From positions 1 through 55,286 of IMG/VR virus record IMGVR_UViG_3300013099_000024: DNA of 55,286 nt; one strand, given 5' to 3'. Source of the stretch: a virus (Duplodnaviria; Caudoviricetes). The translations under genes were made by a program, and so were the position numbers. Below the pieces are notes generated by a model. The model was not told the origin of the DNA and searched no databases. It saw only the letters and a program-made list of their open reading frames with translations. Position 1 is the stretch's first letter, and each line of letters starts with the position of its first letter. Below are positions 23,365 through 53,016 of this stretch, one piece after another.

Positions 23365-24131
23365 GGTTTATCACCTTTCACAAAGTATCCTCCTTGCATT
23401 GATCCAGGAACAGGCGTTTGCGCTTGATCGTAGTGCACTTCGACATGAGGCAACCGTAGCTCTTCTCTCTTATCGTCATGCATCCAGATGATCGATCGCT
23501 TCTTCCTATCGAAATAGAACCTTGCCCCTGGGTTCTCGTTGTTTATGATTATATGATAGCCTCCTCTCGTTTCTGTGATCCATAGTACATCTGATTCTAG
23601 GCAATTGACTACTTGCTGTAAGACATCCTGGTCCTTCACATCTATATCCACCAAGTACACTGGTTTCCTTGTCCTACTGCGACAAATACATGAGAACCAA
23701 TGTCGATCCAAATTCTTAAACTTCTGTGCCACAGTTGTACTCTGCTTTACAAACATTGCTTCAACCAGGCTCTCAGCTATCAACTTCTCGTATGCCTTCA
23801 ACACTGACTTTGGATGGAGATCCACATATAATGTCATCGCCTTTGCGGGGATAGGTTTTCCTGTCTTGTAGTCCACATAGATGTTCTTCACATATCCTAA
23901 CCTCTTTAGTCTACGCCAGACATACGAGAAATCATCGTGCTTCAATATCTCATATGCCAGCAACTCCTCGCTCCTCGAGATGTTGGCATACTTCTTCCTC
24001 GCAACGATAACTGCCGTAAGAACCTCATCACCAGTCAACCTTGGCCAGACTGCCTTGTAGAACTTCCTAAACACTGACTTCCCTTTCTCAGTCAGTAACA
24101 TTAGCATCACCTCAATTCCTTTCCACGCCAT
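23361..24131 (-). CDS. Putative AEP-superfamily (primase-like) protein
   Basis: LVDIDVKD and ETRGGYHII resemble AEP motifs I/II; near MCM. Confidence 0.45.
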   Translation of the reverse strand: MAWKGIEVMLMLLTEKGKSVFRKFYKAVWPRLTGDEVLTAVIVARKKYANISRSEELLAYEILKHDDFSYVWRRLKRLGYVKNIYVDYKTGKPIPAKAMTLYVDLHPKSVLKAYEKLIAESLVEAMFVKQSTTVAQKFKNLDRHWFSCICRSRTRKPVYLVDIDVKDQDVLQQVVNCLESDVLWITETRGGYHIIINNENPGARFYFDRKKRSIIWMHDDKREELRLPHVEVHYDQAQTPVPGSMQGGYFVKGDKP

Positions 24132-24904
24132 GCCACTGCCACCACATTATGCTCATGAATGCTCTCCTCATGCTCAGCTACAATCACCCAGTCATCGATC
24201 CAACTCCACTCATTTACTACCTTCACTGCCTTTCTTGCGACATCCTCTACAAACATCGGATGATCTTCTGCCTGTTGACACCAATATAGTTCTTCTACCC
24301 TCTTCATCTCGGCCCATGGCATCAACTTCAGTTCGTCCACCAAATCAGTAATCATCCACGAAGTATACTGAGGGAGCGATTCATTGAACTCACTCAACCG
24401 CACAGTAATCGTCATCCGACTGCGTTGCATGTGTGGAATACCTCTTCCTGTAGCTCTCACCATCTCCAGACTACACGGACATACGCTGGCATATGGTAGG
24501 GTAAACGTCAGATACCATCTACAGTTGTCCTGGAAACGGCGGCCTTCGAGAACAAAATTCACAGTGAAACGTGGACCAACGGCATAGTCGATGATATAGG
24601 ACCATTTGCACTTCCAGTAGGTATTGCTGCTATCATGAGTGGAGGCTAATTCCTCAAGGAAGTTATCGTCGCACGCAATTTCCTCACCTTCCCAGTCGAG
24701 AAGGACGCCTGCCAATCGACTCATATGAATGCCCTTTCGATCGGTGAGACTGACATAGGCAGATTGCCTAGTGATCACAGGAGCTCCATCCCACGTGCGT
24801 CTGACGTTGAGTCCACGGATGCCGACCTTTTGGAGAGAAATGCCGCTGTCGTCCGATTGGCTTGCGTAGTCAGGCAGAAACTTTACCGATGACAAGACTA
24901 TCAC
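24107..24904 (-). CDS. folE2: GTP cyclohydrolase FolE2/MptA family
   Basis: LQKVGI, KGIHMSRL, SVCPCS, HMQRS, FVEDVAR, ESIHEHN. Confidence 0.92.
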   Translation of the reverse strand: MIVLSSVKFLPDYASQSDDSGISLQKVGIRGLNVRRTWDGAPVITRQSAYVSLTDRKGIHMSRLAGVLLDWEGEEIACDDNFLEELASTHDSSNTYWKCKWSYIIDYAVGPRFTVNFVLEGRRFQDNCRWYLTFTLPYASVCPCSLEMVRATGRGIPHMQRSRMTITVRLSEFNESLPQYTSWMITDLVDELKLMPWAEMKRVEELYWCQQAEDHPMFVEDVARKAVKVVNEWSWIDDWVIVAEHEESIHEHNVVAVAWRGKELR

Positions 24905-25563
24905 CTCCAACCTGCTGTGATATGCAACCTTGGTGAAATTCTCGTCTGCACTATCCCATTCTCCCACATCCACTGGCGGATACCTTCCAAACTTTTCGCA
25001 ATCTCCTCAACCGTCGTGCCTTGCGGCATGAGATACACATTCGGACTATCGATCAACTCCAAATATGGTTCCAACGTATCCATCGAATACCTTCCAATTC
25101 CCCATCGTTCTCCATCCGACACAATCTTGACAAACAACTTCCTCTTATGCTTCCCTCTCCTCACCTTCTTCAACCACCACTCGAGATCTCCCAGCCTCTT
25201 CGGTGACACCACAATGCGGCTAAACAACCCAAAATCAAACCTCTTCACCGTTCCATTCGTCTCCAACCCAACATACTCCGACCAGTCCCATTGCCACCAA
25301 CGAACTAACAACTCTCTCAACTCCTTCCACTGTAACAATGGCTCACCACCCGTGACGATGAGATGAGGATTCGCATAGTCCCATAGTTGGCGGAGTATTT
25401 CATCAACAGACATAGTCGGATGACGACTAGAGTTAGACCACGCGTGTTTGGAGTCACATTGTTCACAACCAAGATTGCAGCCCCTTAACCTAAGGAAAAC
25501 TGCCCTCAGCCCGATGTCAGGTCCCTCCCCCTGAATACTTTCGTATATCTCGGTAACTTTCAT
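24901..25563 (-). CDS. queE: 7-carboxy-7-deazaguanine synthase (radical SAM)
   Basis: SIQGEG, GCNLGCEQCDS, TGGEPLLQ, ETNGT, VSPK, PRLH. Confidence 0.95.
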   Translation of the reverse strand: MKVTEIYESIQGEGPDIGLRAVFLRLRGCNLGCEQCDSKHAWSNSSRHPTMSVDEILRQLWDYANPHLIVTGGEPLLQWKELRELLVRWWQWDWSEYVGLETNGTVKRFDFGLFSRIVVSPKRLGDLEWWLKKVRRGKHKRKLFVKIVSDGERWGIGRYSMDTLEPYLELIDSPNVYLMPQGTTVEEIAKSLEGIRQWMWENGIVQTRISPRLHITAGWR

Positions 25564-25591
25564 GCCTATCACCTCAAAAAATAGGAAGACA

Positions 25592-25993
25592 CTATGGACC
25601 ATCTACTGGAATGGAATACGTCGCTGACTGCTTCTCGGACTCCCAGATGGTGACTTTTATGTAAGAGATCTGTTTGCCTGCAACATTAATCACTCTGTCT
25701 GCTATCCACTTTGCTATGCACTCACAGGTGGGGTCTGATTGAAATCCTATGACAGAATCCAATACCTCAAACAGAGGGTCGGATACATTTAGCAATGTCT
25801 TGTGATCCAACTGTTGGATGATCTCTTTGATACATCCAAAATCCACTACCATTCCTGTCTGCTTGTCTGGAACCCCTTCTAACTCGACTCTCACCTTCCA
25901 CGTATGTCCATGCAGATTTCTACACTTCCCGGGATGCTTCATCAACCTATGTGCAGCCGCGAACGAATCCTCAACAACTAGTCTCATCCTCAA
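25592..25993 (-). CDS. queD: 6-carboxytetrahydropterin synthase
   Basis: FAAAHRL, KCRNLHGH, VDFG, LDHK.LN, PTCE, WES. Confidence 0.95.
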   Translation of the reverse strand: MRMRLVVEDSFAAAHRLMKHPGKCRNLHGHTWKVRVELEGVPDKQTGMVVDFGCIKEIIQQLDHKTLLNVSDPLFEVLDSVIGFQSDPTCECIAKWIADRVINVAGKQISYIKVTIWESEKQSATYSIPVDGP

Positions 25994-32774: not shown

Positions 32775-33418
32775 TCACCTCCTCCACAACGGGTCCTCTA
32801 TTCTAGCCATCTCAAAGGCCATCTTCCTCTCAACACATGCGGAACACTTACCACAGGGTTTGCGTTGACCTTCATAACATGTCCATGTTTTCTCGAATGG
32901 AACACCCAGTTTGTGGCCGATGGCAACAATGTCGGCCTTCGACTTATACAAAAATGGGGTATGAATCACTGGTTCTTGCAGATCGTTGCCTATCATCAAC
33001 GCCAAATTCAATGCCTGATAGAATTCAGGTCGACAGTCAGGATAAGTCTCCCAATCATTTCGATGTGTAGCAATATATACTCTGTAGATATGACGACTCA
33101 GTGCATAACCTACCGCAATCGACAATAGAATCATATTCCTATTCGGCACGACGGTAGATCCTTGACCATTGACCAACAGAGACGATGACTGGAACACAGT
33201 CTTCGGCAACTTTATGACTTCATGCTCAAATCCCAACTGCTTGGCTACCCATTCTGCGCATCTGAGCTCCTTCCTGGCCTTCTGACCGTAGTCGAACGTC
33301 AGAGCAATCGCACTGTAGCCTCGATTCTTCAGCCAATAGGCCAACACTGTGCTGTCCAAGCCTCCAGATAGTAGCATCACGGCATCATATTTGGGGTATG
33401 TAGATGTGTCGTCAGTCA
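32775..33418 (-). CDS. queC: 7-cyano-7-deazaguanine synthase (canonical)
   Basis: SGGLDST, FDYGQ, VPNRN, YPDCRPEF, TCY..CGKCSAC. Confidence 0.95.
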
Positions 33419-34228
33419 TAAGACTTTCACCTTTGCTTTCTCCTCGACAAACTTCACCAATTTGTCCCACGTACAATCGACTATTGTGCCACTAATATTC
33501 CAGGCCCTGCACTTCACAATCGTAAACTGTCTCACTGGTGTTGTCTTACCAGGCGGTATCATCACCTCAGCCTTCATCACAATGTCCAACCAATGCTCCG
33601 TATCTTTCTGCCAGCGACTCCTATAGCGACCGGTAGGCGTACCATCTTCGGTAAACACCTCCTGTACCTTCCCGGTTAATACGACATGCCACTTCGATCT
33701 CAACAGCTTGTAGATCATCTGTAAATACCTCTTATTTGCCCTTCCCCACTCGAACCGTGGTACTTCCCCACTTTTCGTCCTGCGCCTAGCACCTTCTTCC
33801 TCCAACCAGACTCCGATCCACTGCCAAATATCAGACGCCGAATCGATGACGATCGTTCCTCTCACATCCGAGTGATCCTGGACATACTTGACGACTGCCT
33901 TCAGTGCCTTCTCAACCTCCTCCAACGACTGTATCGGATCAGGTTCCATGGTCTCAGGATCAAGCTGTAGAGCCTCAAAGATGTAGACCTTATCCCTTTC
34001 CTCTGGGGGTACAGCATTGTCGACTACTAAGCGACTGCCAAACTCAGTGTCAATAACGAAAATCGGTTTGGGAGCCGTCAGTGCGAAGTGGCTTTTACCA
34101 GAACCAGGCAAGCCGTACACACCCACCTTTAGGCCTTCGACTGGAGGCAATTCTGTTGATGGCTTGAAGAACTCATCAACATTCGGGACTTCTAACTCCT
34201 CCTTCTTATTCCATGCCACTAACCTCAC
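33416..34228 (-). CDS. Sak4-like AAA ATPase
   Basis: GLPGSGKS, IDTEFG, IVIDS. Confidence 0.75.
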   Translation of the reverse strand: MRLVAWNKKEELEVPNVDEFFKPSTELPPVEGLKVGVYGLPGSGKSHFALTAPKPIFVIDTEFGSRLVVDNAVPPEERDKVYIFEALQLDPETMEPDPIQSLEEVEKALKAVVKYVQDHSDVRGTIVIDSASDIWQWIGVWLEEEGARRRTKSGEVPRFEWGRANKRYLQMIYKLLRSKWHVVLTGKVQEVFTEDGTPTGRYRSRWQKDTEHWLDIVMKAEVMIPPGKTTPVRQFTIVKCRAWNISGTIVDCTWDKLVKFVEEKAKVKVL

Positions 34229-34904
34229 CTCTCAACACAATTTCGTAATCATTTATGCCTTCTACCCCAACCTTCTTACCTAACACCTCTCTCTCAACAC
34301 ACGCCTGACACTGTTTACAGGGCCTAACAACATTCTCATCAACAATTGGCTCATAACACGTAAGTGTCTTCCTCCAATCCACACCCAACTCCAATGCTCT
34401 CCTAACAATCTGCGCTTTATCCCATTCGACGAACGGCACATAGACCTTGATGTTTGTCGTATAGTTGTGATTTAACAACATCTGCAATGACTCTGCGAAC
34501 CAAGGCGTTATATCCCAGTATTCGCGGTATGTCGTGTGTCGGTGGATAGCTAATCCGATGTAGATCTCGTTGAGATCATTCTCGATTGCAAAGAACTCCG
34601 CGTACACTGCGAGATAGACTGCGAACAGCAAATTCCTACTCGGAAAATACTGCGTGAGACCGTAGCGTTCATCCATCTTCTGTTTGACTACCTTCCTACT
34701 TGGCACATGATCCCTCAGATCCACAACGATGGGTTCGAGGTCTAATGCCTCATAGTGTAGTTCCTTACAGATCTGAGCCTCCAGTAGGCTGCGTTTTGAA
34801 TACACGAAGTTGACGGGATGAACTACGAAACCCTCTTCCAGTGCATGATACAGTAGTGTCGTGCTGTCTAAACCTCCACTGTGAGCCAAAAATAGGTGTT
34901 TCAT
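34206..34904 (-). CDS. QueC paralog 2 (divergent)
   Basis: SGGLDST, FPSRN, YWDI replacing YPDC, TCY..CKQCQAC. Confidence 0.85.
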   Translation of the reverse strand: MKHLFLAHSGGLDSTTLLYHALEEGFVVHPVNFVYSKRSLLEAQICKELHYEALDLEPIVVDLRDHVPSRKVVKQKMDERYGLTQYFPSRNLLFAVYLAVYAEFFAIENDLNEIYIGLAIHRHTTYREYWDITPWFAESLQMLLNHNYTTNIKVYVPFVEWDKAQIVRRALELGVDWRKTLTCYEPIVDENVVRPCKQCQACVEREVLGKKVGVEGINDYEIVLRGEVSGME

Positions 34905-36945: not shown

Positions 36946-37176
36946 TCACTTCCTCACCAGGAAGATCCTATCTCCTCTCTTCACAACCTTCACACCATCA
37001 ACCTTCTTACACACCTTCAGTAGTTGCTGATAGACCGTCTGAGGCTTAGCCTTAAACCCAGTTACTTCGGCTTGCGCCAGCTTAGCTTCCATAAACTTTT
37101 GCACAATCTCCTCATACTGCTTGCTCCTTCCCTTGACCTCCTTCTTTGGAAGCTCATCTACCTTCTTCAACTCCAT
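36946..37176 (-). CDS. Small basic DNA-binding protein
   Basis: Lys-rich; GGAGGTGA RBS before ATG 37176. Confidence 0.6.
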   Translation of the reverse strand: MELKKVDELPKKEVKGRSKQYEEIVQKFMEAKLAQAEVTGFKAKPQTVYQQLLKVCKKVDGVKVVKRGDRIFLVRK

Positions 37177-37299
37177 ACTATCACCTCCTTCAAATCGAAC
37201 CATCTCCCACATTCTGGACACTCAACTTCTACATCAAAACCTCTTCTCAACATACACCCACCGACCACAGAATGGACATTCCACCTCAATCTCGACCAC
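37167..37299 (-). CDS. Double CxxC zinc-ribbon microprotein split by a +1 frameshift
   Basis: MVEIEVECPFCGRWVYVEKRF-stop then +1 frame DVEVECPECGRWFDL; junction TTT TGA. Confidence 0.5.
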
Positions 37300-37307
37300 A
37301 ATCTCAC

Positions 37308-37433
37308 CTCCCTCAGGACTCCTCCACTCGTAGGAGGCGTCGGCTACAAGCAAGCCGACGGGTGCCGGAAAATCAGTTGATGTATTGCAGTCAACGGTAC
37401 ACCCTCCCTACGAGCGCTTAAGGCTTGAGGGAG
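37308..37433 (-). ncRNA. BHB-bounded structured RNA (predicted 99-nt excised RNA, 37417-37319)
   Basis: Nested complementary stems and a 3-4-3 bulge-helix-bulge; fills the intergenic gap exactly. Confidence 0.65.
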
Positions 37434-37434
37434 A

Positions 37435-37569
37435 CTAATCGTAGCTGCATACGATTGTATGGTCACCAACATTCGCATGGATATACTTACACTCCGAACA
37501 GACACTTATGGGTACGAACGCTTTGTGTAATGTACATTCTACATAGCCTACAACCTTCAAGCGCCTCAT
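37435..37569 (-). CDS. 44-aa Cys/His microprotein (not in ORF track)
   Basis: MRRLKVVGYVECTLH..CSECKY..IVCSYD; AGGTGA RBS; ATGA overlap. Confidence 0.55.
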   Translation of the reverse strand: MRRLKVVGYVECTLHKAFVPISVCSECKYIHANVGDHTIVCSYD

Positions 37570-37886
37570 TTTCTCACCTTAAACCATCCACCGCTCATTT
37601 GTTCGAAAACATCATCCAATGACTTCAACACACCCATCAGTTCTCGTCTCCCGAAAAACATCCTATGACCCCAATCGACTCTCACCAAGTGACCTTCTCT
37701 CATCAGCCGATTGAGATAATATCTCACCAACCGATGCTTTTCAGGAATACCCAACCATTCGGCGACATCAGTAGCTTCATACAATAGATCCAAATCAAAC
37801 CTACTTAGGCATACATATAGGACTACCCAACGATTGAATCGTTTAGACATCGAACTCCACAACGTCCTCAATCTGTGCTCTCTCAA
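37566..37886 (-). CDS. Winged-helix DNA-binding protein
   Basis: ATDVAEWLG..VRYYLNRLMREGHLVRV; start probably 37850. Confidence 0.6.
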   Translation of the reverse strand: MREHRLRTLWSSMSKRFNRWVVLYVCLSRFDLDLLYEATDVAEWLGIPEKHRLVRYYLNRLMREGHLVRVDWGHRMFFGRRELMGVLKSLDDVFEQMSGGWFKVRK

Positions 37887-38373
37887 AGGCTTCCTTGCGT
37901 CTTAGACACGATGAACATCGTCCACAATGAACGTCCCATCCCTTCTCGCAGCTGTAGGTCAACTCGAATGGCACATTCAGTTGTTGTCCCAATCTCACCA
38001 CATCAACTGCTGACATCCCTGACAATGGCGTTTCGACAGTAGTCCTGAAGACTTCTCTCGCCACATCGCTGTATGCCTTACCATCTCCATAACAGCCGAC
38101 ATACACCTTACCATCAGGCATTGCACGATCGATGCCAATTGCCATCAACACACCAGGAACGAACCTCTCGATTGGAGGCATGATGACTACAATCTCAGTG
38201 ACAACGTCATAGTACTCTCTCAGTGCTACAATGGATTCTCTCTCACGCTCTGCAGTTCTCTGACCGTAGTTCACCCAAACAGCCAGGATATTGTCACGAC
38301 CATATTCCTCGATCATCTTTGCTAACAACACTGTACTACCGATGCCTCCATTGAACAAAATCACATGGCGCAT
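37843..38373 (-). CDS. QueC paralog 3 (degenerate)
   Basis: NGGIGST instead of SGGLDS, VNYGQ, TYSC..CGRCSSC; central region shortened. Confidence 0.8.
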   Translation of the reverse strand: MRHVILFNGGIGSTVLLAKMIEEYGRDNILAVWVNYGQRTAERERESIVALREYYDVVTEIVVIMPPIERFVPGVLMAIGIDRAMPDGKVYVGCYGDGKAYSDVAREVFRTTVETPLSGMSAVDVVRLGQQLNVPFELTYSCEKGWDVHCGRCSSCLRRKEAFERAQIEDVVEFDV

Positions 38374-42530: not shown

Positions 42531-42682
42531 TCCAATTCGTCGACAAGCTCTTCGCTGTAGGGTAGTACTACGGCCTCTCGATCACCGTCACAATAGCCTC
42601 CGAATGCTTCCATGAAGTCGTAGATGTCCATTAGGCTGGCTACTTCATAACCTACCAGGATGCGTTTCATAACAGTCATCAT
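42494..42682 (-). CDS. Hypothetical protein
   Basis: Acidic ORF overlapping both neighbours. Confidence 0.5.
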   Translation of the reverse strand: MMTVMKRILVGYEVASLMDIYDFMEAFGGYCDGDREAVVLPYSEELVDELECRGIIFTVEVM

Positions 42683-43412
42683 CCCTCAATTCCTCAGGCC
42701 ATTTGATACATGGACGAATCCAACATAAGAATCTTTTTACTTCCCCTTTACCTCCCCTCAATCTCAAATTTTCCATCCTAACTTTAGGATGTGATACCCA
42801 GCGCTTTACATCGAAATTATGTTGACACAATATGCTTTCTACTACATCCATTAGCTTGGTATTTGTATTACATACGACGTGTACATACCATGAATATCCA
42901 TTGAAGTAAATGCATCCTTCGCTCTCATATAGACCTCTCACAAATGCTCCTTGTAAATCAGGAGACCATCGTAACGGTTCGTCTATGGGTGTTTGTGTTA
43001 ACCGCTCATACAATTGTTTGCTGTAGCAAAACACTCGGTATAGTTTGTATTCATACAATTTCGGATTCAGACCAAGCCGTTTGAGCACATCTCTAACGCT
43101 ACATGCAAACTCGTAATCTTTGACCTGTAATTGAAAGCCATAGCTGTACATCTCTTCATTTCGAAACACTGAACCGTCCCCCAAATACACTCCGAAGATG
43201 TATGCCAAATCCTCCGTTATCTCGTCTGGTAATTTCTTCTCACATCTTAACCTTGTCGCCTCTCTACGATTGCGTCGAGGTATGCCATACATAGCCATCC
43301 AATCCCAAACTGTAGTGTACGATACTCCCAATCGTTTAGCTATCTGGTTGATACTCAAGCCTTCTTCCCAATACATACGATATAGGTCCTCCTTCGAAAT
43401 TCTCCTCGTCAT
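42645..43412 (-). CDS. Free-standing HTH + LAGLIDADG homing endonuclease
   Basis: LSINQIAKRLGVS HTH; LAYIFGVYLGDGS and FVRGLYESEGC. Confidence 0.88.
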   Translation of the reverse strand: MTRRISKEDLYRMYWEEGLSINQIAKRLGVSYTTVWDWMAMYGIPRRNRREATRLRCEKKLPDEITEDLAYIFGVYLGDGSVFRNEEMYSYGFQLQVKDYEFACSVRDVLKRLGLNPKLYEYKLYRVFCYSKQLYERLTQTPIDEPLRWSPDLQGAFVRGLYESEGCIYFNGYSWYVHVVCNTNTKLMDVVESILCQHNFDVKRWVSHPKVRMENLRLRGGKGEVKRFLCWIRPCIKWPEELRDDDCYETHPGRL

Positions 43413-43781: not shown

Positions 43782-44527
43782 GCATCACCTCCTCATAGTG
43801 GCAAGCACTCCGGGTGTACATACATATAGTCTTCCTCGACTATAAACTCATCATCTGATACATATCCAAACCTGATCTGATAGCATCTCTCCCCTTCCAC
43901 AATTTCTTGACCACAAACATCACATTTCATCTATTCAACACCACCCTAACCTCCTCCACATACAGCCAAAGGTCATCGCCGCACACGCTACCTTGACAGA
44001 TTCGTCTTCAATCTTCATACTTATATACTCCATCCATTTCCTACCTTCATCAGTTTTCATCCATTCCTCAAACTCTCTAACCATATCCTCATCCATCTTC
44101 ATTTTGAATCTCACCTCTAATTACCTTCTCCACGATCTCCTTATGTCTCCTCCACAACTTCATTGGATCGGTCTCCCATCCATGACCTTCCGAATAGACC
44201 TCTTGATCATACCAAATGCTTACCTCATCTCCCTAAATACTCCAGTCTCAGCACACCTACCTACTCCAATCGGAATGTCCCAAGCCACTGTCGACACCCA
44301 GACACCCTTATGTTCAATCCATGTCTGATAGCACACCAACCTTTGGTCATATTTATCACTTCCTCCTTCTCTTTGCCTTCTCAACCGCACTATATGAGGA
44401 TACACTGATCCTCAAATGTTTAGGAGGATAGCCAGTAGGCCATCCTCCGCACATTCTGAGGTGATGTCTCCATCTGGATTTCCTCACATACACTCCACAC
44501 TTAGGGCAGATAGGCATCCGTCCTCAC

Positions 44528-44932
44528 CTACTCACAGTACACTTCTATGTCCATCAGCCTACAGCTTTCCGTCTTCCAATCGTACATCATACATTCTTCC
44601 CTCAAACAATCCTCCCTGGTCAATGGACACTTGCGCCTGTCTTCGATTTGTAACTCATACTTCAAATACCTCATCGCAGTTTCTACCTTTCCATATGTAT
44701 CCAGCAACCATCTGCTAAATCTCTCAATATCCCTCCTCACCATTCCAATGACATCCATGATTTCTCTCTCGCCTACATCATACCTCAGTTCCACACACTT
44801 CAGAGTCTTCATCACCGTCACATCGTCTGCCTCCCACTCTACATCTACCTTGCCTAACGACACCCAATGCTTGCACTGTAGTCGGACTTCCAATGTGTGT
44901 TCATCTACTATGTCTACTTCCACCTTAAACAA
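44528..44932 (-). CDS. Hypothetical protein, family C (C-terminal Cys cluster)
   Basis: CPLT..C..C..C; similar to 45938-46354. Confidence 0.6.
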   Translation of the reverse strand: MFKVEVDIVDEHTLEVRLQCKHWVSLGKVDVEWEADDVTVMKTLKCVELRYDVGEREIMDVIGMVRRDIERFSRWLLDTYGKVETAMRYLKYELQIEDRRKCPLTREDCLREECMMYDWKTESCRLMDIEVYCE

Positions 44933-44938
44933 CTGTCA

Positions 44939-45184
44939 TCACCTCACATTACATTCTTCCCTCAGTTTACACACATCACAAAACCTTTCCTCCATTCCTT
45001 CGAATCTGATGGGCACTAGCCATCGACCGTTTTTGGTGCAACAGACACAATCGCAGTTTGGTATTGGATACGGTCTTAGGAATGCTTTAGAATCTCTCAA
45101 CGCTATACCGTCATGGTGAGGACATTTCTCGCATTCTTCTAAACTTTTCTTCTCTCCATCTGGACATTCAACCCAATACTCCAT
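44939..45184 (-). CDS. Cys-rich protein
   Basis: Multiple CxxC; GAGGTGA RBS. Confidence 0.55.
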   Translation of the reverse strand: MEYWVECPDGEKKSLEECEKCPHHDGIALRDSKAFLRPYPIPNCDCVCCTKNGRWLVPIRFEGMEERFCDVCKLREECNVR

Positions 45185-45196
45185 GTTATTGTCACC

Positions 45197-45553
45197 TCAC
45201 TCAAACAACAAATCCGTTACCACCAACCTAAACTCGTCATTGACCACATGCGTTACCCACACCACCACATACGAATCTGCAAACCATGGTTCATCTCGAC
45301 CCAACACTCTACACAAGTCACCTAGCGTCATTACCAAGAACTCGCCATCGCCAGCAGGATGCTCCTCAACGACCTTGGCCTCTCTCTCCAGCTGTCTCAC
45401 TTTCTCGAGGTCTACAATTCCCACATCCCAGATATTAAACAATCCGTGGCCATCCACAGTCACCAACATGTCTTTACACTCGACCTCACAGACATCCCTA
45501 CCTGAGCCTACACCGAACCTCCTCAGACCTAACCTCATACCTCTCTCACCCAA
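45197..45553 (-). CDS. Hypothetical protein
   Basis: ORF in early cluster. Confidence 0.5.
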   Translation of the reverse strand: MGERGMRLGLRRFGVGSGRDVCEVECKDMLVTVDGHGLFNIWDVGIVDLEKVRQLEREAKVVEEHPAGDGEFLVMTLGDLCRVLGRDEPWFADSYVVVWVTHVVNDEFRLVVTDLLFE

Positions 45554-45921
45554 CCTTCGATTACCAATCTCTCTATCAACCTCTCCTTCAGCTCCCTATC
45601 TTCCACTTCCTCTTCCACCAACCTCCTTGGATCTCTAATGCCATATACCTCAATTTGTTTTGATCCAAAGACTACAGCATTTCCCTTACCATCATACACC
45701 ACTGGACACTTGACCTTCCGCAACACTCCCATCTTAGCCATGGCCTCCATCGTCAAGCAAATTTTCTCTTCATCCACCCCCTCCACATTGCTAATTGCTG
45801 CTTCATACTCCTCCCTTGTAATAATTCCGTTCTCGTAGGCTCTCCTAAAATCCTCACTTGACAGTTGCAACAACCTCTCTTTCTCCACAGTCTCAAACCT
45901 TTCCTCCCAATCAATTGGCAT
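45535..45921 (-). CDS. Hypothetical protein, family B
   Basis: AYENGIITREE; paralog of 42045-42530. Confidence 0.6.
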   Translation of the reverse strand: MPIDWEERFETVEKERLLQLSSEDFRRAYENGIITREEYEAAISNVEGVDEEKICLTMEAMAKMGVLRKVKCPVVYDGKGNAVVFGSKQIEVYGIRDPRRLVEEEVEDRELKERLIERLVIEGWVREV

Positions 45922-45937
45922 ATACTATCACCTCCTA

Positions 45938-46354
45938 TCAGATTTGGTTTACATCCACCCTCAACAAACAACAATCCCATGGTCTATAATACCACTTACA
46001 CCTCGGAGTACACTCAACTCCTGTTAATGGGCAAATCTCTACATTCACCACATTATATTTGGCTTTCAACTTCTCCACCAACTCTTCCATAGGCCTCGCC
46101 AATTCGTGTATAACCTCTCGTATCCTATCAATGTCATGTTCTATGGCCTTCTTTGCCTCTCCAACATCCGATACCTCATAATCTAGTCTTATACAATTGA
46201 GTTCCTTAGCAAACGATATCTTATCGACTGTCAAATCCCTTAGTAAATCCTTTGCCATTCTCTCCAATTCGACACAAATCCACCTATCTGTATATATCCA
46301 TACTGATAATTTGCAACCCTCCAGAACTTCTATTTCGACTTCAAATCTCGGCAT
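45938..46354 (-). CDS. Hypothetical protein, family C
   Basis: Paralog of 44528-44932. Confidence 0.6.
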   Translation of the reverse strand: MPRFEVEIEVLEGCKLSVWIYTDRWICVELERMAKDLLRDLTVDKISFAKELNCIRLDYEVSDVGEAKKAIEHDIDRIREVIHELARPMEELVEKLKAKYNVVNVEICPLTGVECTPRCKWYYRPWDCCLLRVDVNQI

Positions 46355-46541
46355 ACGACATTACCTCCTCTACAAACGCATCCAACACGTTCTCCTCAAT
46401 CTCTAACCCAACATACTCAACGAACTTCCGAAGAATCTCCCTTAATGCCAAAATCCATCTTGCCTTCTCCAACTCTTCCAAACTGATCCATTCACCCTTC
46501 TCGAATGCCTCCACAATTGTCTCAGCTTCTTCGACTTTCAC
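46341..46541 (-). CDS. Hypothetical protein
   Basis: Coupled ORF. Confidence 0.5.
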   Translation of the reverse strand: MKVEEAETIVEAFEKGEWISLEELEKARWILALREILRKFVEYVGLEIEENVLDAFVEEVMSYAEI

Positions 46542-46879
46542 CTCCTCTCCAAATACTTCTCTCCTAACTCAGTCAAACAATAACATCCCCGTCTAACCCT
46601 GATCACATACCCTTTCCTCATCAACGCCGCCAACGCCTTCCTTACACCTTGCGTATTCCAATTTAACTCCCTTACAATCGTTCGCAGTGCACAGTTACCA
46701 TGTCGCTGAATAACTTTCAATACAAGCATCTGCATCACTGTACATCCCTCATGAACATCCTCTCGGTCTCTGGATGCAACCCCACCAGTTCGCTTGGCCA
46801 TCATTCGATTACTTCCTCCAACTCTTTCACTTTGGCTTTCACTCTCTCCACAAAATCCCAATACCTTTTCAACCACCAT
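46538..46879 (-). CDS. wHTH transcription regulator
   Basis: LRTIVRELNW..VRKALAALMRKGYV..YCLTELG; real start probably further downstream. Confidence 0.7.
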   Translation of the reverse strand: MVVEKVLGFCGESESQSERVGGSNRMMAKRTGGVASRDREDVHEGCTVMQMLVLKVIQRHGNCALRTIVRELNWNTQGVRKALAALMRKGYVIRVRRGCYCLTELGEKYLERR

Positions 46880-47220
46880 TGATAGACCTCATATTCACCC
46901 AATCTCTGCTCATTAGGTTCCATATCAATAATACGTCCTTCCTTGACAGCCTTCTCAATTGCTTCCTTAGTCACCCCCTTCATCCTTCCCTCTGTTGGAT
47001 AAGCCCAATACACCACCAAGCATGTCCAACCCTCCAGCACGGGCTCACATGGCAGACATACTTTCCAACCTTCCTCACCCTCACTATCACTCCATTTACC
47101 CTCGATAAACCCTCGATATCTCAACATCCAATACACATAAAAAGGATAGTGTATCAAGCTATCCCTGAAGTTACCAGTCTTCCACAACTTCACAACCCAA
47201 GGCAGCCTACCAGATTCCAT
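46801..47220 (-). CDS. Hypothetical protein
   Basis: W/Y-rich ORF with RBS. Confidence 0.5.
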   Translation of the reverse strand: MESGRLPWVVKLWKTGNFRDSLIHYPFYVYWMLRYRGFIEGKWSDSEGEEGWKVCLPCEPVLEGWTCLVVYWAYPTEGRMKGVTKEAIEKAVKEGRIIDMEPNEQRLGEYEVYQWWLKRYWDFVERVKAKVKELEEVIE

Positions 47221-47437
47221 CCAATATCACCTTGACTTCCAACCTACCACTATTCACCACATATTTGATTTCCTTTACATCCTCATCTAACAGCCATACG
47301 CAACCACTATGAATGGCTACCAAAACCGTTCCAATCTTCAGCCAAACTTTACTTGCAGTATATGCTAATGTAGTCTCAATTACTCGACCCCTATGAATCC
47401 TCTCGAGAACCCACCTTCCTTCCTCTCCAAAAAACAT
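47207..47437 (-). CDS. Hypothetical protein
   Basis: ORF with AGGTGA RBS. Confidence 0.5.
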   Translation of the reverse strand: MFFGEEGRWVLERIHRGRVIETTLAYTASKVWLKIGTVLVAIHSGCVWLLDEDVKEIKYVVNSGRLEVKVILDGIW

Positions 47438-47634
47438 TCTAAATCACCTTTCACGTTGCCTTACCAAATCTGCCACAATCCTTGCACACTCACTACAAAT
47501 CCAAGGTATCGGCAGGAACTCCTCATTCGCGATGACTTCCTCTTCCTCATCTACCGGAGAATTACATAACGCACAATATCTTTGGGCATACCCTCGGATA
47601 TTCCCATACCTAACTCGATCCATTTCACATCACC

Positions 47635-47955
47635 TCAACCCCATACCAACTTTACCTCCCTATCTGGATCCTCCATATAATGCTTCCTCAACTCCTGCAA
47701 CGGCCATATCAATCTCATTGCACCCTCGATGTCTCCAATTTCCAAGTAAAATTGAACCCACTTCTTTAGGCTCTCCCAAATCTCATACAGTTTCACTACA
47801 ATTAATCCTTCCTCACCTACCTCTTCCATACCTCGTGCTCTACAAAAACTTACCAACCAATGGAGATGCTCTTCCTTGGCATTACACCCGATGTCGGCCA
47901 ACCATTCATCATTCCAATAATCCACTACCTTAATACAAATCCCCATCCTAATCAC
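47635..47955 (-). CDS. Hypothetical protein
   Basis: ORF in early cluster. Confidence 0.5.
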   Translation of the reverse strand: MIRMGICIKVVDYWNDEWLADIGCNAKEEHLHWLVSFCRARGMEEVGEEGLIVVKLYEIWESLKKWVQFYLEIGDIEGAMRLIWPLQELRKHYMEDPDREVKLVWG

Positions 47956-48157
47956 CCACCTTTATCCTCAAAACCTCATACAACCCATCCCCATCCTCCA
48001 CTCCTTTAATCACATACACCTCTCTACCTACTATCACAACTTCGACGACTTCCCTTTCATCTACCTTCAAGTCCACAACCTCCCCCTCCCTTTCCAACCT
48101 CTTGACTTCCTCCTCACCAACTAACATTCCCTCAACTTCCATACTCCCGAACCTCAT
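47948..48157 (-). CDS. Hypothetical protein lacking A, P, T, Q, H
   Basis: GGAGGTGA RBS; C-poor coding strand. Confidence 0.55.
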   Translation of the reverse strand: MRFGSMEVEGMLVGEEEVKRLEREGEVVDLKVDEREVVEVVIVGREVYVIKGVEDGDGLYEVLRIKVGD

Positions 48158-48355
48158 AGCATCGTCACCTCCTCCTGCGGAACTATCTCCACCTTATCCA
48201 TATCCAAATCCCCAGGCTTACCCAACCACAACCAACAAATCACCTTCAACGACCTCTCGTGCCACCTCTCTCTCGCCTACTTTGGCACACGAAAGATCAC
48301 TCTATCCTTCGACCCAGACCGTACTACACCTTCATTCCAATCTACAACTATCACA

Positions 48356-48847
48356 CTACCTACCTCCCATCATCCTCCAAATCTCCAAATATCTCCGCAA
48401 CTCAAAATCTGGCTTCAACTGCCTCACTTCCTCCACCACCTTCACCACATTCGGATCCCTCATCATTGCTTCCTCATCAAACGCATGAATCTCCGCCATC
48501 TGCCTGAGCCTCTGCACCAACTTCTGCAACCTGGCCAACCTCTGTTCCAGGCGGATGTCCTCCAGCTGTCCGCGCAACCTCCTTTCCAACTCCTCCAACA
48601 TCTTCAACCTATCCCTCAACTCCGCTATCTGCCTCTCAATCGCCCTCTTATTCTCCTCAATCACCCTCAACTGATCCTCTACAACCCTCTCCTTCAACAC
48701 CATCCTCCAATCCTCACTCCCAGTCGCTCCTATCGCCGCTCTCAATGCTATATCCAACAACTCACTCGGCTTCAATCCCATCGCTTTCACCGCCTTATAC
48801 AGTTCTGCATCCGCCGTCAGAGTGACCGTCTGTCGCACATCAATCAC
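48356..48847 (-). CDS. RHH-like N-terminus plus coiled coil
   Basis: QTVTLTADAELY..KPSELLD; long heptad region. Confidence 0.55.
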   Translation of the reverse strand: MIDVRQTVTLTADAELYKAVKAMGLKPSELLDIALRAAIGATGSEDWRMVLKERVVEDQLRVIEENKRAIERQIAELRDRLKMLEELERRLRGQLEDIRLEQRLARLQKLVQRLRQMAEIHAFDEEAMMRDPNVVKVVEEVRQLKPDFELRRYLEIWRMMGGR

Positions 48848-48849
48848 CT

Positions 48850-49323
48850 CTAGACATATTTCACCCTAACAAAGTCACATACCATTCCATCAGATATCAC
48901 TGCTGCCAATTTCAGATTTCTAAGCACCCGAAGCTTGTATTTGCCTCCTGAGTAATCGAATACTTTCTGCCCTTCACGATATATTTCAACTACACAACCC
49001 ATGTAACTTCCATCAGTATAAGAATACACCTCATATTGTGGTGCTGAGTTAATCTCCCGATAAATTAGAACTTCTTGGTTTCGCTTGACTTTCCACTTCG
49101 AATGAACGGTGGCGTCCGTTTTGAACAGCGGTCTTCCGCGGACTACTTGAACCTCGCCGTATGTAATTGCAACTATTAGATCTGGTGCTGGATTGTACAC
49201 TTCGCCCTTAGCCGGAATCCAAATTACATTCTCGTCCTTTCCAAGCTCATACACTCCATCGCTTCGTCCTCCAAATTGAACCACTTTCTTACCGTCAATC
49301 TCGTAAATTCCACCCATCATCAC
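48850..49323 (-). CDS. Hypothetical protein (atypical composition)
   Basis: GGAGGTG RBS; much weaker strand skew than neighbours. Confidence 0.6.
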   Translation of the reverse strand: MMMGGIYEIDGKKVVQFGGRSDGVYELGKDENVIWIPAKGEVYNPAPDLIVAITYGEVQVVRGRPLFKTDATVHSKWKVKRNQEVLIYREINSAPQYEVYSYTDGSYMGCVVEIYREGQKVFDYSGGKYKLRVLRNLKLAAVISDGMVCDFVRVKYV

Positions 49324-49339
49324 TAAAACACCTCCTTAT

Positions 49340-49770
49340 ACAGCAGACTTTTCGTTTATCCGTCACGAATCATCCAAAAACTTTTCGCTTTCATACCACA
49401 GGATTAATCTTCAGATAAAGATCCATGAAAAACACCTTAGGACATGTGTCAAATGCCATTTGCATACATCTTTATGTATTTGCAGATGTGCAACCGTTTG
49501 TGTTTTTGTGAAGAGAAAGAGTCATATCTGTCATGGATGATCCGCAGACTTTGTGTTTTCCGAAATGATTGGAGCATTCTATGTCCACAATTGATCCGCA
49601 AAACTTTTGTTTTCACGATTGCACACACCATTTCCATCATGATTGATCGTTGCATCGATCTATCACAAATCATCTGCAAACTTGAAGTCTTTCCATCACG
49701 ATTGATCCATGCAAACATTTCGCTTTTCTGTGAGACTCTTCACCTTTCCATCACGATTGATCCACACACA
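49340..49770. repeat. Cluster of degenerate direct repeats (ttccatcacgattgatcc / tgatccgcaaacttt)
   Basis: tttccatcacgattgatcca at about 49690 and 49745; variant at 49631; tgatccgca(g/aa)acttt at 49538 and 49592. Confidence 0.65.
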
Positions 49771-50493
49771 ACCTTTCTTCATCCAAACCACAACTCCACT
49801 GTGTCTGTCATGACTCAACCTACGATTCCTCCCACTCCACTTCCTTCCACTGCTGCTCCTCCTCACAATCACACGGATAATGGCAGAAACACACTGGGCA
49901 CCAATCGCAAGCCGACAACCTACAGCACTTATGCGCAACACTGATGATCAATGGCTTCAACTCATCAGGTATGCGCTCGCCCAATCTCCTTTCTACACAT
50001 GCAAAACAAACCTTTCCTTTCTCCTTTCTCACCAACACCAATCATATCCTGCTTTGTTCAACATCTCCACAATGTCATCAATTGTTTTCCTCCCGCCAAA
50101 AGTCGTCACCGAATTCCTTGATCACCTTCCGAACTAACGCTTTTGCTTCCTCCATCATTCTCACATCACCCGCCGATAACTTGACATCGACAACCAGAAC
50201 ATCGCGCCCACAAAAATTGAGAAAGTTGACCTTTCACTCAACCTCAATCCTCACATCCCCCGAACTTCATCCATGCCTGCATCAAACAACTCTGCTAACT
50301 GTTACGGATCCATCACCTCACCCTGACGACAATCCATCCATCAAACCATTCACTGACTACAATCACTTCGTTTTCCTTTACGATAACCTCTTTTCCACTC
50401 TCATCAGGCTCAACATACACCACTTCGCCTTCTTCCTCAAGCTTTCCTATCTTCTCCACTTCCTCTTCACCTACGAACTCAACACTCAACATC

Positions 50494-50679
50494 TCACATC
50501 ACCTCACCCTTCCATCTAAGCCATTTCTCACATACCTTCAAAAATCCATCCACCAAAATCATATCATCCCTACCCATCAAACTCAACACTCCCTGCAATC
50601 CTGGCATCAACTTCTCCATTTCAGTTATCACTCTCACTACCTCCTCAACAATCTCCTCATCGCTGTACCAGTTCCTCAA
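50494..50679 (-). CDS. Hypothetical protein
   Basis: ORF in early cluster; start uncertain. Confidence 0.45.
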   Translation of the reverse strand: MRNWYSDEEIVEEVVRVITEMEKLMPGLQGVLSLMGRDDMILVDGFLKVCEKWLRWKGEVM

Positions 50680-51003
50680 CTACTCCCTATACGTCTTGAC
50701 CCAAGACTGATCTTCCATCACTCATCACCTCAACATCTCCACAACTTCCGTGATAATCACCTCATTCTATGGCGGCATAACACTCATCACAAAAACATGT
50801 TTGTAGTTAACGTTGCCTTATCTTCCAATCCATTGCTGCTACGAACTCATCTCTTCCAATCATACCCAACTTTTTCACACACCTATCGCACTTCCCATAA
50901 CAACTCACACTACATCTCCACACCATTTTCCACCACCTCTCCCAAATCTTTTATCCATCCTTTCTCTCTCAACCATTCTTCAAACTTCCAATCAAACATC
51001 CAA

Positions 51004-51246
51004 TCACCTCACTCTCTCCACAATCACTTCCAACTCATCCAACAACACTCTTGCTCTTCCCGAACATCTCAGCTCCATCCAAACTTCATCAATCATCTCA
51101 CTTACCGTGCACAATTTGCCCTCGTCATTCACAAAGAAGTCATTCATCACCACAAACCGCCTGATAAACCTTTCCAATTCCTCTTTACTCCTCACCTCAA
51201 CCTCCATCATGTTACCACCACCGAGAAAAAACAAAAATGGAGTCAA
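51004..51246 (-). CDS. Hypothetical protein
   Basis: Probable start MMEVEV at about 51210. Confidence 0.5.
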   Translation of the reverse strand: MTPFLFFLGGGNMMEVEVRSKEELERFIRRFVVMNDFFVNDEGKLCTVSEMIDEVWMELRCSGRARVLLDELEVIVERVR

Positions 51247-52726: not shown

Positions 52727-52771
52727 TCTTTTCCACCTCCTTTTTTTTCTTCAATTTTAACTTTAATTTTG

Positions 52772-52790
52772 CATTTAAAAAAGCTTTTGG
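52772..52790 (-). promoter_or_regulatory. BRE/TATA promoter of early arm
   Basis: Minus strand ccaaaagcTTTTTTAAAtg. Confidence 0.65.
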
Positions 52791-52823
52791 ATTTGTGCAT
52801 TTTTATTTTTTTGCTTTATGCGC

Positions 52824-52905
52824 TTGTTGCTAAAAATTTTTTAAAATTGCAGCAACAAATTTAAAAATCGTTTATCGCTCAAAATTTATAAAAATGTGCG
52901 ATAAA
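52824..52905. repeat. Twin 8-bp inverted repeats, each with a 19-nt AT-rich spacer
   Basis: ttgttgct(52824)/agcaacaa(52851); tttatcgc(52871)/gcgataaa(52898). Confidence 0.7.
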
Positions 52906-53016
52906 AATCTAGTAGGACCTGTCTATCCCAGGGGGCGGGGGCCCCAATGTTGGCCGTGTTAGGCAGACTCTCGCTTGGCTGTCGAGACTATCGTCTGGCA
53001 AGTTGTGAGAGAGATC

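What the first reader, a model, noticed from the sequence alone, without database searches (positions are those of the whole stretch)
37308..37433. Intergenic structured RNA closed by a canonical bulge-helix-bulge: candidate viral circular RNA or splicing switch
Seen on the minus (sense) strand: outer stem CUCCCUCA/UGAGGGAG plus a G-C pair; 4-bp helix CCUU/GAGG; 3-nt bulges AAG and AGU, each 3' of the helix; inner stem CGCUCGUAGG/CCUACGAGUG; inside, a perfect CGUCGGCU/AGCCGACG hairpin and a GUUGA/UCAAC arm. It starts right after one stop codon and its outer stem covers part of the next GGAGGUGA RBS. Known: archaeal EndA cuts BHB motifs after the second bulge base and RtcB ligates exons and circularises introns. 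Inference: the virus uses host tRNA splicing to release a stable 99-nt circle (37417-37319) of unknown function (decoy, guide or packaging RNA) and/or to gate translation of the downstream genes. There is no tRNA body.
Basis: partly seen in the sequence, partly recalled or inferred. Interest (0 to 1): 0.85.

Follow-up and report, generated by a model that had tools for sequence, protein, structure and literature searches.

The report
Stable RNA hairpin inserted between viral genes
A very stable, GC-rich RNA hairpin sits as an insertion between two tiny genes of a probable archaeal tailed virus and buries the next gene's ribosome-binding site and start codon. Its resemblance to an archaeal splicing (bulge-helix-bulge) site is real on paper, but the few related sequences available do not back it.

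Summary
The 126-nt fold has an MFE of -57.3 kcal/mol and z = -5.0, and it is the most stable 130-nt window in the 55-kb contig.

The 3-4-3 bulge-helix-bulge (BHB) register has the correct polarity. However, it lies 2.2 kcal/mol above the MFE, which prefers a symmetric 3x3 loop, and makes up under 1% of the ensemble. Given the two long stems, a 3-4-3 arises by chance in about 0.3-2% of trials.

- **Comparative evidence is against a conserved BHB.** The one syntenic relative (L004) lacks the whole hairpin as a 131-nt indel. One low-depth contig from a strain about 96% identical lacks the 5' BHB strand.
- **No homologue of the element was found** in any collection searched, and no RNA data exist.
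- **The stem reaches further than reported**, to 37445-37295. It pairs the upstream stop-codon region with the SD and GUG start of the next gene through sense-specific G·U pairs.

Best reading: an inserted, self-folding intercistronic hairpin that occludes the downstream initiation region and makes its translation depend on upstream translation (about 0.5). A BHB intron that yields a 99-nt circle remains possible (about 0.18).

The parts
37295..37445 (-). Whole extended stem-loop (151 nt), from the last codons of the upstream gene to just past the downstream start codon
   Evidence: MFE of 37470-37270 sense strand is -77.4 kcal/mol, z = -3.31. Pair table.
37308..37433 (-).
   Evidence: MFE -57.3, z = -5.0; GC 0.58 against 0.46 for the window
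37312..37442 (-). 131-nt stretch present here and absent from relative L004 (indel)
   Evidence: MAFFT alignment A2, columns 159-289; L004 sequence
37434..37445 (-). 5' strand of the basal helix, covering the last codons and stop codon TAG (37437-37435) of the 44-aa gene
   Evidence: Pairs with 37307-37295 (9 + 2 bp, 6 of them G.U) on the sense strand only
37295..37307 (-). 3' strand of the basal helix, including the 3' end of the SD and the GUG start (37299-37297) of the downstream small gene
   Evidence: duplex -8.9 kcal/mol, reached by 2.3-2.5% of random 12-mers
37426..37433 (-). Outer stem, 5' arm CUCCCUCA
37308..37315 (-). Outer stem, 3' arm UGAGGGAG; overlaps SD GGAGGUGA (37312-37305)
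37417..37424 (-). 5' half of the candidate BHB: G (37424), CCUU (37423-37420), bulge AAG (37419-37417)
   Evidence: constrained fold
37317..37324 (-). 3' half of the candidate BHB: GAGG (37324-37321), bulge AGU (37320-37318), C (37317)
   Evidence: constrained fold
37319..37417 (-). Hypothetical 99-nt intron or circle if EndA cut after the second base of each bulge (not shown)
   Evidence: Geometry only. Circular fold -35.0 kcal/mol at 37 C and -2.3 at 85 C.
37406..37416 (-). Inner stem 5' strand (11 bp with 37335-37325)
37325..37335 (-). Inner stem 3' strand
37360..37404 (-). Arm 1: 6-bp helix GGGUGU/GCACCC enclosing the GUUGA/UCAAC hairpin (37395-37376) and a U-rich single strand
37339..37359 (-). 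Arm 2: perfect 7-8 bp GC-rich hairpin
37435..37569 (-). Upstream 44-aa Cys-rich gene (homologue in L004)
37234..37299 (-). Downstream small gene (MVEIEVECP..., GUG start) whose SD and start lie inside the stem. Its N-terminus is conserved in L004 with synonymous changes.

Best explanation
The feature is a self-folding, GC-rich palindromic module of about 130 nt. It sits as an indel in the junction between two small genes of a long minus-strand operon in a probable archaeal tailed virus.

In the polycistronic sense RNA it closes into a 151-nt stem-loop (37445-37295). The 5' strand at the base is made of the last codons and stop codon of the 44-aa gene plus the outer arm. The 3' strand is the Shine-Dalgarno sequence and GUG start of the next gene.

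Proposed mechanism (inferred, not shown):
- In free mRNA the downstream initiation region is sequestered.
- A ribosome finishing the upstream gene unwinds the 5' strand of the base and releases the SD.
- Downstream translation therefore stays coupled to upstream translation.

Relatives achieve this coupling simply by placing the stop codon inside the SD. The hairpin also brings the stop and start back together in space, which would explain why so large an insertion is tolerated at this spot. It may in addition protect the mRNA. On this reading the BHB-like irregularity in the stem is incidental.
For: Structure:
- It is real and exceptional.
- It extends beyond the reported limits. There are 9 + 2 further base pairs joining 37445-37434 to 37307-37295, so the stop codon, the SD and the GUG all lie in the stem.
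- 6 of these 11 pairs are G.U, so the helix exists only on the sense strand. The antisense fold does not form it. This argues for an RNA-level structure in the mRNA.
- The extension duplex (-8.9 kcal/mol) is reached by 2.3-2.5% of random 12-mers in any register.

Accessibility model:
- The SD has P(unpaired) 0.20-0.32 in free mRNA.
- This rises to 0.61-0.70 when the footprint of a ribosome on the upstream stop is forced single-stranded.

Comparison with relatives:
- In L004 the homologous junction is stop-inside-SD (TGG AGG TGA) with no hairpin. Its 141-nt region folds with z = -1.86.
- In L003 the same SD, spacer and start follows the wHTH gene stop directly.
- The 3' strand of the base is native sequence shared with L004. 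The complementary 5' strand lies in the stretch specific to this window.

The fold is still predicted at 85 C (-13.8 to -14.9 kcal/mol).
Against: - No experiment or expression data exist.
- Only one comparator carries the junction, so selection for the basal pairing is not demonstrated, and p of about 0.02 is modest.
- G.U pairs are expected to be commoner on a G-rich sense strand anyway.
- In the ribosome-on-stop model the start codon stays largely paired at 37-70 C (P(unpaired) 0.02-0.07).
- The model does not explain the elaborate three-way interior, or why the interior of the stem fits a 3-4-3 BHB, which is a 0.3-2% chance event.
- A neutral, merely tolerated insertion would look the same.
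Confidence: 0.5

Rival explanations
1. BHB intron. Host EndA cuts after the second base of the AAG and AGU bulges. RtcB joins the exons and circularises a 99-nt RNA (37417-37319), which then acts as a stable viral small RNA and/or changes expression of the downstream genes.
For: - The 3-4-3 geometry has correct polarity and long flanking helices, resembling rRNA processing stems.
- Given the 9x9 interior between the two stems, a 3-4-3 register arises in only 0.3-2.3% of shuffled, random or decayed-palindrome interiors.
- The host is probably archaeal. The 15 listed top PolB hits are all haloarchaeal tailed viruses. Hef/Xpf-type nuclease and methanogen-type thymidylate synthase are the best NCBIfam matches, though below the curated cut-offs.
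- There is precedent for a BHB intron in an untranslated mRNA region that gives a circle: the HVO_1309 5' UTR (PMC7714728, passages read).
- The element is an indel, as mobile introns are.
- Splicing would weaken the occluding stem from -14.9 to -3.9 kcal/mol at 85 C.
Against: - The BHB conformer is 2.2 kcal/mol above the MFE and at most 0.8% of the ensemble.
- Helix h next to the 3' bulge is one G-C pair followed by an A.C mismatch. The alpha4 and alpha2 enzymes need a strict hBHBh' (PMC3239211; PMC7714728).
- The CCUU/GAGG helix exists because of a GAGGAG repeat that also gives the competing register.
- The empty site in L004 lacks the outer stem too, so it is not the exon-exon product.
- A contig from a strain about 96% identical lacks the 5' BHB strand.
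- Loosely defined BHB geometry is common: 86 in the window against a mean of 69.3 (range 52-82) in 20 shuffles.
- The virus encodes no EndA or RtcB.
- There is no covariation and there are no RNA data.
Confidence: 0.18
2. A neutral or selfish palindromic insertion: a MITE- or REP-like element, or a hairpin made by replication template switching. It has no function of its own and is tolerated because it folds back on itself.
For: - It is present or absent between relatives as one block that coincides with the hairpin.
- Its internal make-up appears to differ between strains about 96% identical in the flank.
- GC is 0.58 against 0.46 for the window, and it lacks the purine skew of the surrounding genes.
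- The 126-nt core folds equally well on both strands.
Against: - There is no second copy in the window.
- No copy was found in IMG/VR by two pattern scans, in GTDB representative genomes by one pattern, in GenBank phages or PLSDB plasmids by blastn, or in 401 genomes of one archaeal phylum. So no repeat family is shown.
- No clear target-site duplication is visible.
- The sense-specific G.U pairing with the native SD and start region suggests adaptation.
Confidence: 0.2
3. A trans-acting viral small RNA (decoy, guide or protein-binding RNA) processed from the operon transcript by nucleases other than EndA.
For: - It has a compact three-way junction interior with two GC-rich arms that remain stable at high temperature.
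- Its GC content is raised relative to the genome, as seen for structured RNAs of thermophiles (the generalisation is recalled).
- The interior segments 37403-37388 and 37373-37353 are the parts retained in the X2 variant.
Against: - No Rfam match at E <= 10.
- No C/D, H/ACA or K-turn signature by eye.
- No promoter or terminator of its own is seen.
- No homologues and no expression data.
Confidence: 0.07
4. A DNA-level palindrome, such as a protein-binding site, cruciform, origin or recombination site.
For: The 126-nt core is equally stable on both strands.
Against: - The basal 11 bp form only on the sense strand because they use G.U pairs.
- 11 of the 66 MFE pairs are G.U.
- The obvious AT-rich candidate for an origin or promoter region is elsewhere, at 52740-52910.
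Confidence: 0.05

Closest known systems
BHB intron in the 5' UTR of Haloferax volcanii HVO_1309 (Schwarz et al. 2020, PMC7714728; passages read)
   Same: Both are non-coding stretches of an mRNA, outside tRNA and rRNA, flanked by a 3-4-3 motif. In Haloferax the intron is excised by EndA, found as a circle, and linked to expression of the downstream gene.
   Different: - The Haloferax intron is 46 nt, conserved across haloarchaea and shown to be cleaved in vitro.
- Here the candidate is 99 nt, viral, intercistronic rather than in a 5' UTR, not the favoured fold, absent or altered in both comparators, and untested.
BHB motifs in archaeal rRNA processing stems (circular pre-16S and pre-23S; PMC7714728 and PMC12558985, passages read)
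   Same: A 3-4-3 motif embedded in a long helix formed by sequences flanking a structured RNA.
   Different: In rRNA the motif is conserved in most archaea and the enclosed RNA is rRNA. Here the enclosed RNA has no known family and the motif is not conserved.
cbf5 pre-mRNA intron of Crenarchaeota (PMC2738675; search listing and start of abstract only)
   Same: An EndA-type intron in a protein-coding transcript, gained and lost among relatives.
   Different: That intron interrupts a reading frame. Here the upstream frame ends before the element, and no frame is restored by removing it.
Translational coupling by an initiation region buried in a long-range helix that the upstream ribosome opens (classical in RNA phages and bacterial operons; recalled, not checked in a paper here)
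   Same: The SD and start of the downstream cistron pair with sequence at the end of the upstream cistron. The stop codon lies at the base of the helix.
   Different: The helix here is capped by a roughly 110-nt structured insertion. The system is probably archaeal, and nothing has been tested.
REP- or MITE-like intergenic palindromes
   Same: An intergenic, GC-rich, self-complementary block that is present or absent between relatives.
   Different: Those are repeat families. Only a single copy was found anywhere searched.

Membership tests
Archaeal strict hBHBh' substrate of the splicing endonuclease (BHB intron) | Two 3-nt bulges on opposite strands separated by a 4-bp helix, each bulge 3' of its strand of that helix | tested here: met
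   CCUU/GAGG with bulges AAG and AGU can be drawn exactly so (constrained fold -55.1 kcal/mol). The definition comes from PMC3239211 and PMC7714728. The polarity is derived from tRNA numbering, which is recalled.
Archaeal strict hBHBh' substrate of the splicing endonuclease (BHB intron) | The sequence actually folds into the BHB (the check used by Schwarz et al. with RNAcofold) | tested here: not met
   The MFE and centroid give a symmetric 3x3 loop. The BHB makes up 0.8% of the ensemble at 37 C and 0.009% at 85 C. Nearest-neighbour models penalise bulges, so this counts against the BHB but is not decisive.
Archaeal strict hBHBh' substrate of the splicing endonuclease (BHB intron) | Regular flanking helices h and h' | tested here: inconclusive
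   h' is 11 bp. h is one G-C pair, then an A.C mismatch, then 8 bp. I could not establish whether EndA tolerates this.
Archaeal strict hBHBh' substrate of the splicing endonuclease (BHB intron) | Motif conserved or covarying in homologues | tested here: not met
   0 of 2 comparators keep it. L004 lacks the element and the X2 contig lacks the 5' strand. L003 lacks the whole gene junction, and L002 is too short to tell.
Archaeal strict hBHBh' substrate of the splicing endonuclease (BHB intron) | The host supplies EndA and an RNA ligase (archaeal host) | tested here: inconclusive
   An archaeal host is likely but unidentified. PF01974 and PF01139 are absent from the virus record, which is 70% complete.
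Archaeal strict hBHBh' substrate of the splicing endonuclease (BHB intron) | Cleavage at the bulges, with circle and exon junctions present in RNA | not testable with these tools
   All four listed runs are DNA and none is on record as RNA.
Initiation-region-occluding or translational-coupling hairpin | The SD and start codon are base-paired in a stable structure with the end of the upstream cistron | tested here: met
   Pair table. P(unpaired) of the SD is 0.20-0.32 and of the start 0.001-0.29.
Initiation-region-occluding or translational-coupling hairpin | Downstream translation depends on upstream translation | not testable with these tools
   Only a constraint model is available: SD P(unpaired) rises to 0.61-0.70 with a ribosome on the stop codon.
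MITE- or REP-like repeat family | Multiple related copies in the genome or in related genomes | tested here: not met
   There is a single copy in the window. Elsewhere there were only chance matches.
Known RNA families (Rfam 15) and tRNA | A match to a covariance model or a tRNA cloverleaf | tested here: not met
   0 matches at gathering score over the window, 0 at E <= 10 over 37100-37650, and 0 tRNAs.

The most novel reading that the evidence does not exclude
The stem really is an EndA substrate. An archaeal tailed virus would then carry an ORF-less BHB intron in an intercistronic region, using host tRNA-splicing enzymes to shed a heat-stable 99-nt circular RNA and, in doing so, loosening the hairpin that locks the next gene's start site. 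This would be a viral circular RNA made by the archaeal splicing pathway. I found no such case in the literature searches made here.
Probability: 0.18. Interest if true: 0.8.

Novelty: new member of a known kind. Interest (0 to 1): 0.35.

Why it matters
If this is only an occluding or coupling hairpin, it is a tidy but ordinary example of RNA structure controlling a gene junction. Its one notable lesson is that a 130-nt insertion can be tolerated at a stop-inside-SD junction when it folds back on itself.

If the BHB reading were right, EndA/RtcB substrates would extend from cellular tRNA, rRNA and two known mRNAs to a virus. That would give a natural viral circular RNA in archaea, which is worth a cheap in vitro cleavage test.

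The locus is also a useful caution. Loosely defined 3-4-3 geometry occurs about 70-90 times in 55 kb by chance, so BHB calls need comparative or RNA evidence.

Tried and rejected
**Known RNA families.** Rfam at gathering score, Rfam at E <= 10 around the locus and ARAGORN found nothing.

**C/D box, H/ACA and K-turn motifs.** By eye there is a CUGA but no C box, and no tandem G.A next to a 3-nt bulge. These were rejected by inspection only, without a tool.

**Coding potential.**
- Removing the 99 nt restores no reading frame, because the upstream ORF stops at 37437-37435.
- All three frames of the putative circle contain stop codons (read).
- The 53-aa ORF 37344-37505 overlapping the element has no support.

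**Relatives.**
- Single-protein scans of IMG/VR with the 329-aa and 106-aa neighbours found none.
- Alignment-based scans also found none (A1, A3).
- A protein search with the 44-aa gene returned only the window's own protein.

**Homologues of the element.**
- One search gave 5 stretches, all chance on inspection.
- One search gave 1 stretch, inside a GC-rich gene.
- One search gave 26 stretches, almost all in high-GC bacteria. Their local alignment scores of 15-29 show no similarity beyond the typed core.
- blastn against phages and plasmids found no match.
- In 401 genomes of the phylum of G001 there was one 27-nt hit in a GC-rich region that reads like coding sequence, which I judged to be chance.

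**RNA evidence.** No RNA holder was listed, so the circle and exon junctions could not be looked for.

**BHB around the LAGLIDADG gene (42645-43412).** The best candidate pairs an oligo-U run with a purine run and consists mostly of G.U pairs. I rejected it as low complexity.

**Other structured regions.** 52912-53060 (+) has z = -1.5 and is not significant. 44406-44527 lies inside a small ORF. My crude intergenic survey used rough gene calls and is not relied on.

**Host identification.** The protein atlas search with the capsid protein was uninformative.

**Tools and material not available.** Supplementary files of papers were not consulted. The supplements of PMC7714728 may hold the BHB model and further candidate introns.

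Full report
**What the window is.** The window is a whole IMG/VR virus record (55,286 b, linear, estimated 70% complete).
- It encodes tailed-virus structural genes: a capsid protein, a tail tube protein, a tape-measure-like protein and a terminase with an intein signal.
- A long minus-strand block (about 52.7 to 21.4 kb) holds replication and nucleotide-metabolism genes: family-B DNA polymerase, B12-dependent ribonucleotide reductase, a Cas4-like nuclease, an ERCC4 nuclease, FolE2, a QueE-like protein, three QueC-like proteins and a thymidylate synthase.
- The coding strand is strongly G-rich.

**Is the host archaeal?** Probably, but this is not proven.
- Of 2584 phage records matching the PolB, the 15 best listed are all haloarchaeal tailed viruses at 27-28% identity.
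- The best NCBIfam matches of two proteins are the archaeal Hef/Xpf nuclease and the methanogen-type thymidylate synthase, both below the curated cut-offs.
- The AT-rich region 52740-52910 carries TATA-like boxes.
- The virus has no EndA or RtcB domain.

**The observation.**
- The fold is -57.3 kcal/mol with z = -5.0, and 0 of 200 shuffles are as stable.
- It is the most stable of 7356 sliding 130-nt windows on either strand.
- GC is 0.58 against 0.46 for the window, and G and C are balanced, unlike the flanking genes.
- An independent assembly of the probable source run covers the region without gaps (X1 record 2), so it is not an assembly artefact.
- No Rfam family and no tRNA matches.

**The BHB.** It has the polarity of a canonical hBHBh', which I derive from tRNA numbering:
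- Positions 32-35 lie in H, and 36-37 plus the first intron base form the 5' bulge.
- The last two intron bases plus position 38 form the 3' bulge next to the anticodon stem.

This derivation is recalled knowledge. The 3-4-3 definition and the strictness of the alpha4 and alpha2 enzymes come from passages of PMC3239211 and PMC7714728.

The BHB is not the predicted fold. Because the 3' strand reads GAGGAG, CUU can pair in two registers, and the MFE and centroid choose the symmetric 3x3 loop. The BHB conformer is 2.2 kcal/mol higher and makes up 0.8% of the ensemble at 37 C, falling to 0.009% at 85 C.

Chance was assessed in two ways:
- Loosely defined 3-4-3 geometry (H 4 bp, h' at least 6 bp, h at least 5 of 6) occurs 86 times in the window, against a mean of 69.3 (range 52-82) in 20 dinucleotide shuffles. 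Geometry alone therefore means little.
- Conditional on two long stems separated by a 9x9 interior, a 3-4-3 arises in 0.34-0.72% of shuffles of the two 9-mers, 1.0-2.3% of random sense-strand 9-mers, and 0.8-1.8% of decayed palindromes.

So the coincidence is real but modest.

**Relatives.** The neighbouring 329-aa protein has six relatives at 52-80% identity. Three loci could be fetched.
- **L004** (80%) carries the same gene string: wHTH, a 44-aa Cys-rich gene, the tiny Zn-ribbon gene(s) and a 91-aa gene. There the 44-aa gene's stop codon lies inside the SD (TGG AGG TGA), followed by the same spacer and start. MAFFT places a single 131-nt gap in L004 opposite window 37442-37312, which is essentially the whole hairpin including its outer 5' arm. 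The empty site is therefore not what BHB splicing would leave, since splicing would retain about 30 nt of outer stem.
- **L003** (53%) lacks the small genes and has the same SD, spacer and start directly after the wHTH stop.
- **L002** is too short to tell.
- **Run X2** holds a 324-nt contig (depth 2.9) matching 37426-37677 with 9 differences. In it, 37378-37425 is replaced by 12 other letters, after which 25 nt match again. Read against the window, this variant keeps the outer 5' arm and much of the interior. It lacks the 5' bulge, the 5' strands of H and h', and most of the GUUGA hairpin. Nothing from X2 matched 37313-37352. This is one low-depth contig whose 3' half I could not see, so it weakens the idea of a conserved BHB without settling it.

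No homologue of the element was found in IMG/VR, the GTDB representatives, GenBank phages, PLSDB plasmids or 401 genomes of one archaeal phylum. All hits were chance matches.

**A new anatomical point.** With flanks included, the stem continues for another 9 + 2 bp, pairing 37445-37434 with 37307-37295.
- The 5' strand is the last codons and TAG stop of the 44-aa gene.
- The 3' strand is the end of the SD, the spacer and the GUG start of the next gene. That gene's N-terminus (MVEIEVECP) is conserved in L004 with synonymous changes.
- Six of these eleven pairs are G.U, so the helix cannot form on the antisense strand, whose fold uses a different local hairpin.
- The 3' strand is native sequence shared with L004, while the complementary 5' strand lies in the part specific to this window.
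- The duplex energy is reached by 2.3-2.5% of random 12-mers in any register.

**How it most likely works (inference).**
- In free mRNA the SD and start codon are sequestered. P(unpaired) is 0.20-0.32 for the SD and 0.001-0.29 for the start between 37 and 85 C.
- A ribosome terminating on the upstream gene covers the 5' strand of the base. With that stretch held single-stranded, the SD opens to 0.61-0.70, although the start codon opens only at high temperature.
- This is classical structure-mediated translational coupling, and it would preserve the coupling that relatives obtain from a stop-inside-SD junction.
- The hairpin also brings stop and start together, which would explain why so large an insertion is tolerated exactly here.
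- In a model where the 99 nt are removed, the SD and start stay paired but the stem is much weaker: -32.4, -13.0 and -3.9 kcal/mol against -77.4, -36.1 and -14.9 at 37, 65 and 85 C. Splicing could therefore modulate the lock but would not simply open it.

**Comparison with known systems.**
- EndA substrates outside tRNA and rRNA are known in the cbf5 mRNA and in the 5' UTR of HVO_1309, where a 46-nt circle is made and expression depends on EndA (PMC7714728).
- In four literature searches I found no report of a BHB intron or an EndA-derived circle in an archaeal virus. Of the three papers holding both 'bulge-helix-bulge' and 'archaeal virus', I read passages of one (PMC4090602, where viruses are mentioned only as integrating into tRNA genes) and saw only the listings of the other two.

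As a member of the BHB-intron family the element meets the geometric criterion. It fails the fold and conservation criteria, and the decisive biochemical criterion cannot be tested here.

**Verdict.** This is a real, exceptional and apparently orphan structured RNA insertion. It is best read as an occluding or coupling hairpin (about 0.5) or a merely tolerated palindromic insertion (about 0.2). The BHB-intron and circle model is not excluded (about 0.18) and can be tested cheaply in vitro. Overall interest is moderate to low, rising to high only if cleavage is shown.

Noticed in passing
window 37299-37167 (-); L004 421-535: There are two overlapping tiny Zn-ribbon-half reading frames. The first is MVEIEVECPFCGRW... 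(21 aa), followed in the -1 frame by ...FDVEVECPECGRWFDLKEVIVWS. Both frames keep conserved residues in L004, although 7-, 9- and 1-nt indels separate the two sequences. The arrangement could be a frameshifted single CPxCG...CPxCG ribbon or two overlapping mini-genes.
   Followed up: partly
window 24107-25602, 32775-33476, 34206-34904, 37843-38373 (-): FolE2, a QueE-like radical-SAM protein and three QueC-like paralogues suggest a 7-deazaguanine (DNA modification) pathway with unusual QueC multiplicity.
   Followed up: no
window 42645-43412 (-): A free-standing LAGLIDADG/HTH gene follows an oligo-T run. A BHB-like pairing between that U-run (about 43456) and a purine run (about 42534) encloses the gene, but it is mostly G.U pairs and low complexity.
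   Followed up: partly
window 53673-55286 (+): The terminase large-subunit ORF carries an intein-splicing-domain signal, below the Pfam cut-off.
   Followed up: no
window 52740-52910: An AT-rich region with several TATA-like boxes and inverted repeats (I2, I5) lies between the minus-strand block and the terminase side. It is a candidate divergent promoter or origin.
   Followed up: no
window 44500-51700: The long + strand ORFs here (up to 275 aa) lie opposite many small purine-rich minus-strand genes, and the GC skew is -0.5 to -0.68. They are probably antisense artefacts.
   Followed up: partly
window 22-5436 (+): A giant 1804-aa ORF at the contig start contains an ATP-dependent DNA ligase domain and a weak pyrimidine-dimer glycosylase match.
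   Followed up: no
window 44406-44527 (-): This is the second most stable local fold in the contig (-51 to -56 kcal/mol), with an 11-bp hairpin. It lies inside a small CPKC...C ORF.
   Followed up: no
L002 20-60: In the 76%-identity relative, a short hairpin (CGUCUA/UAGACG) abuts the SD of the 91-aa gene. Hairpins next to SDs may recur in this virus group.
   Followed up: no
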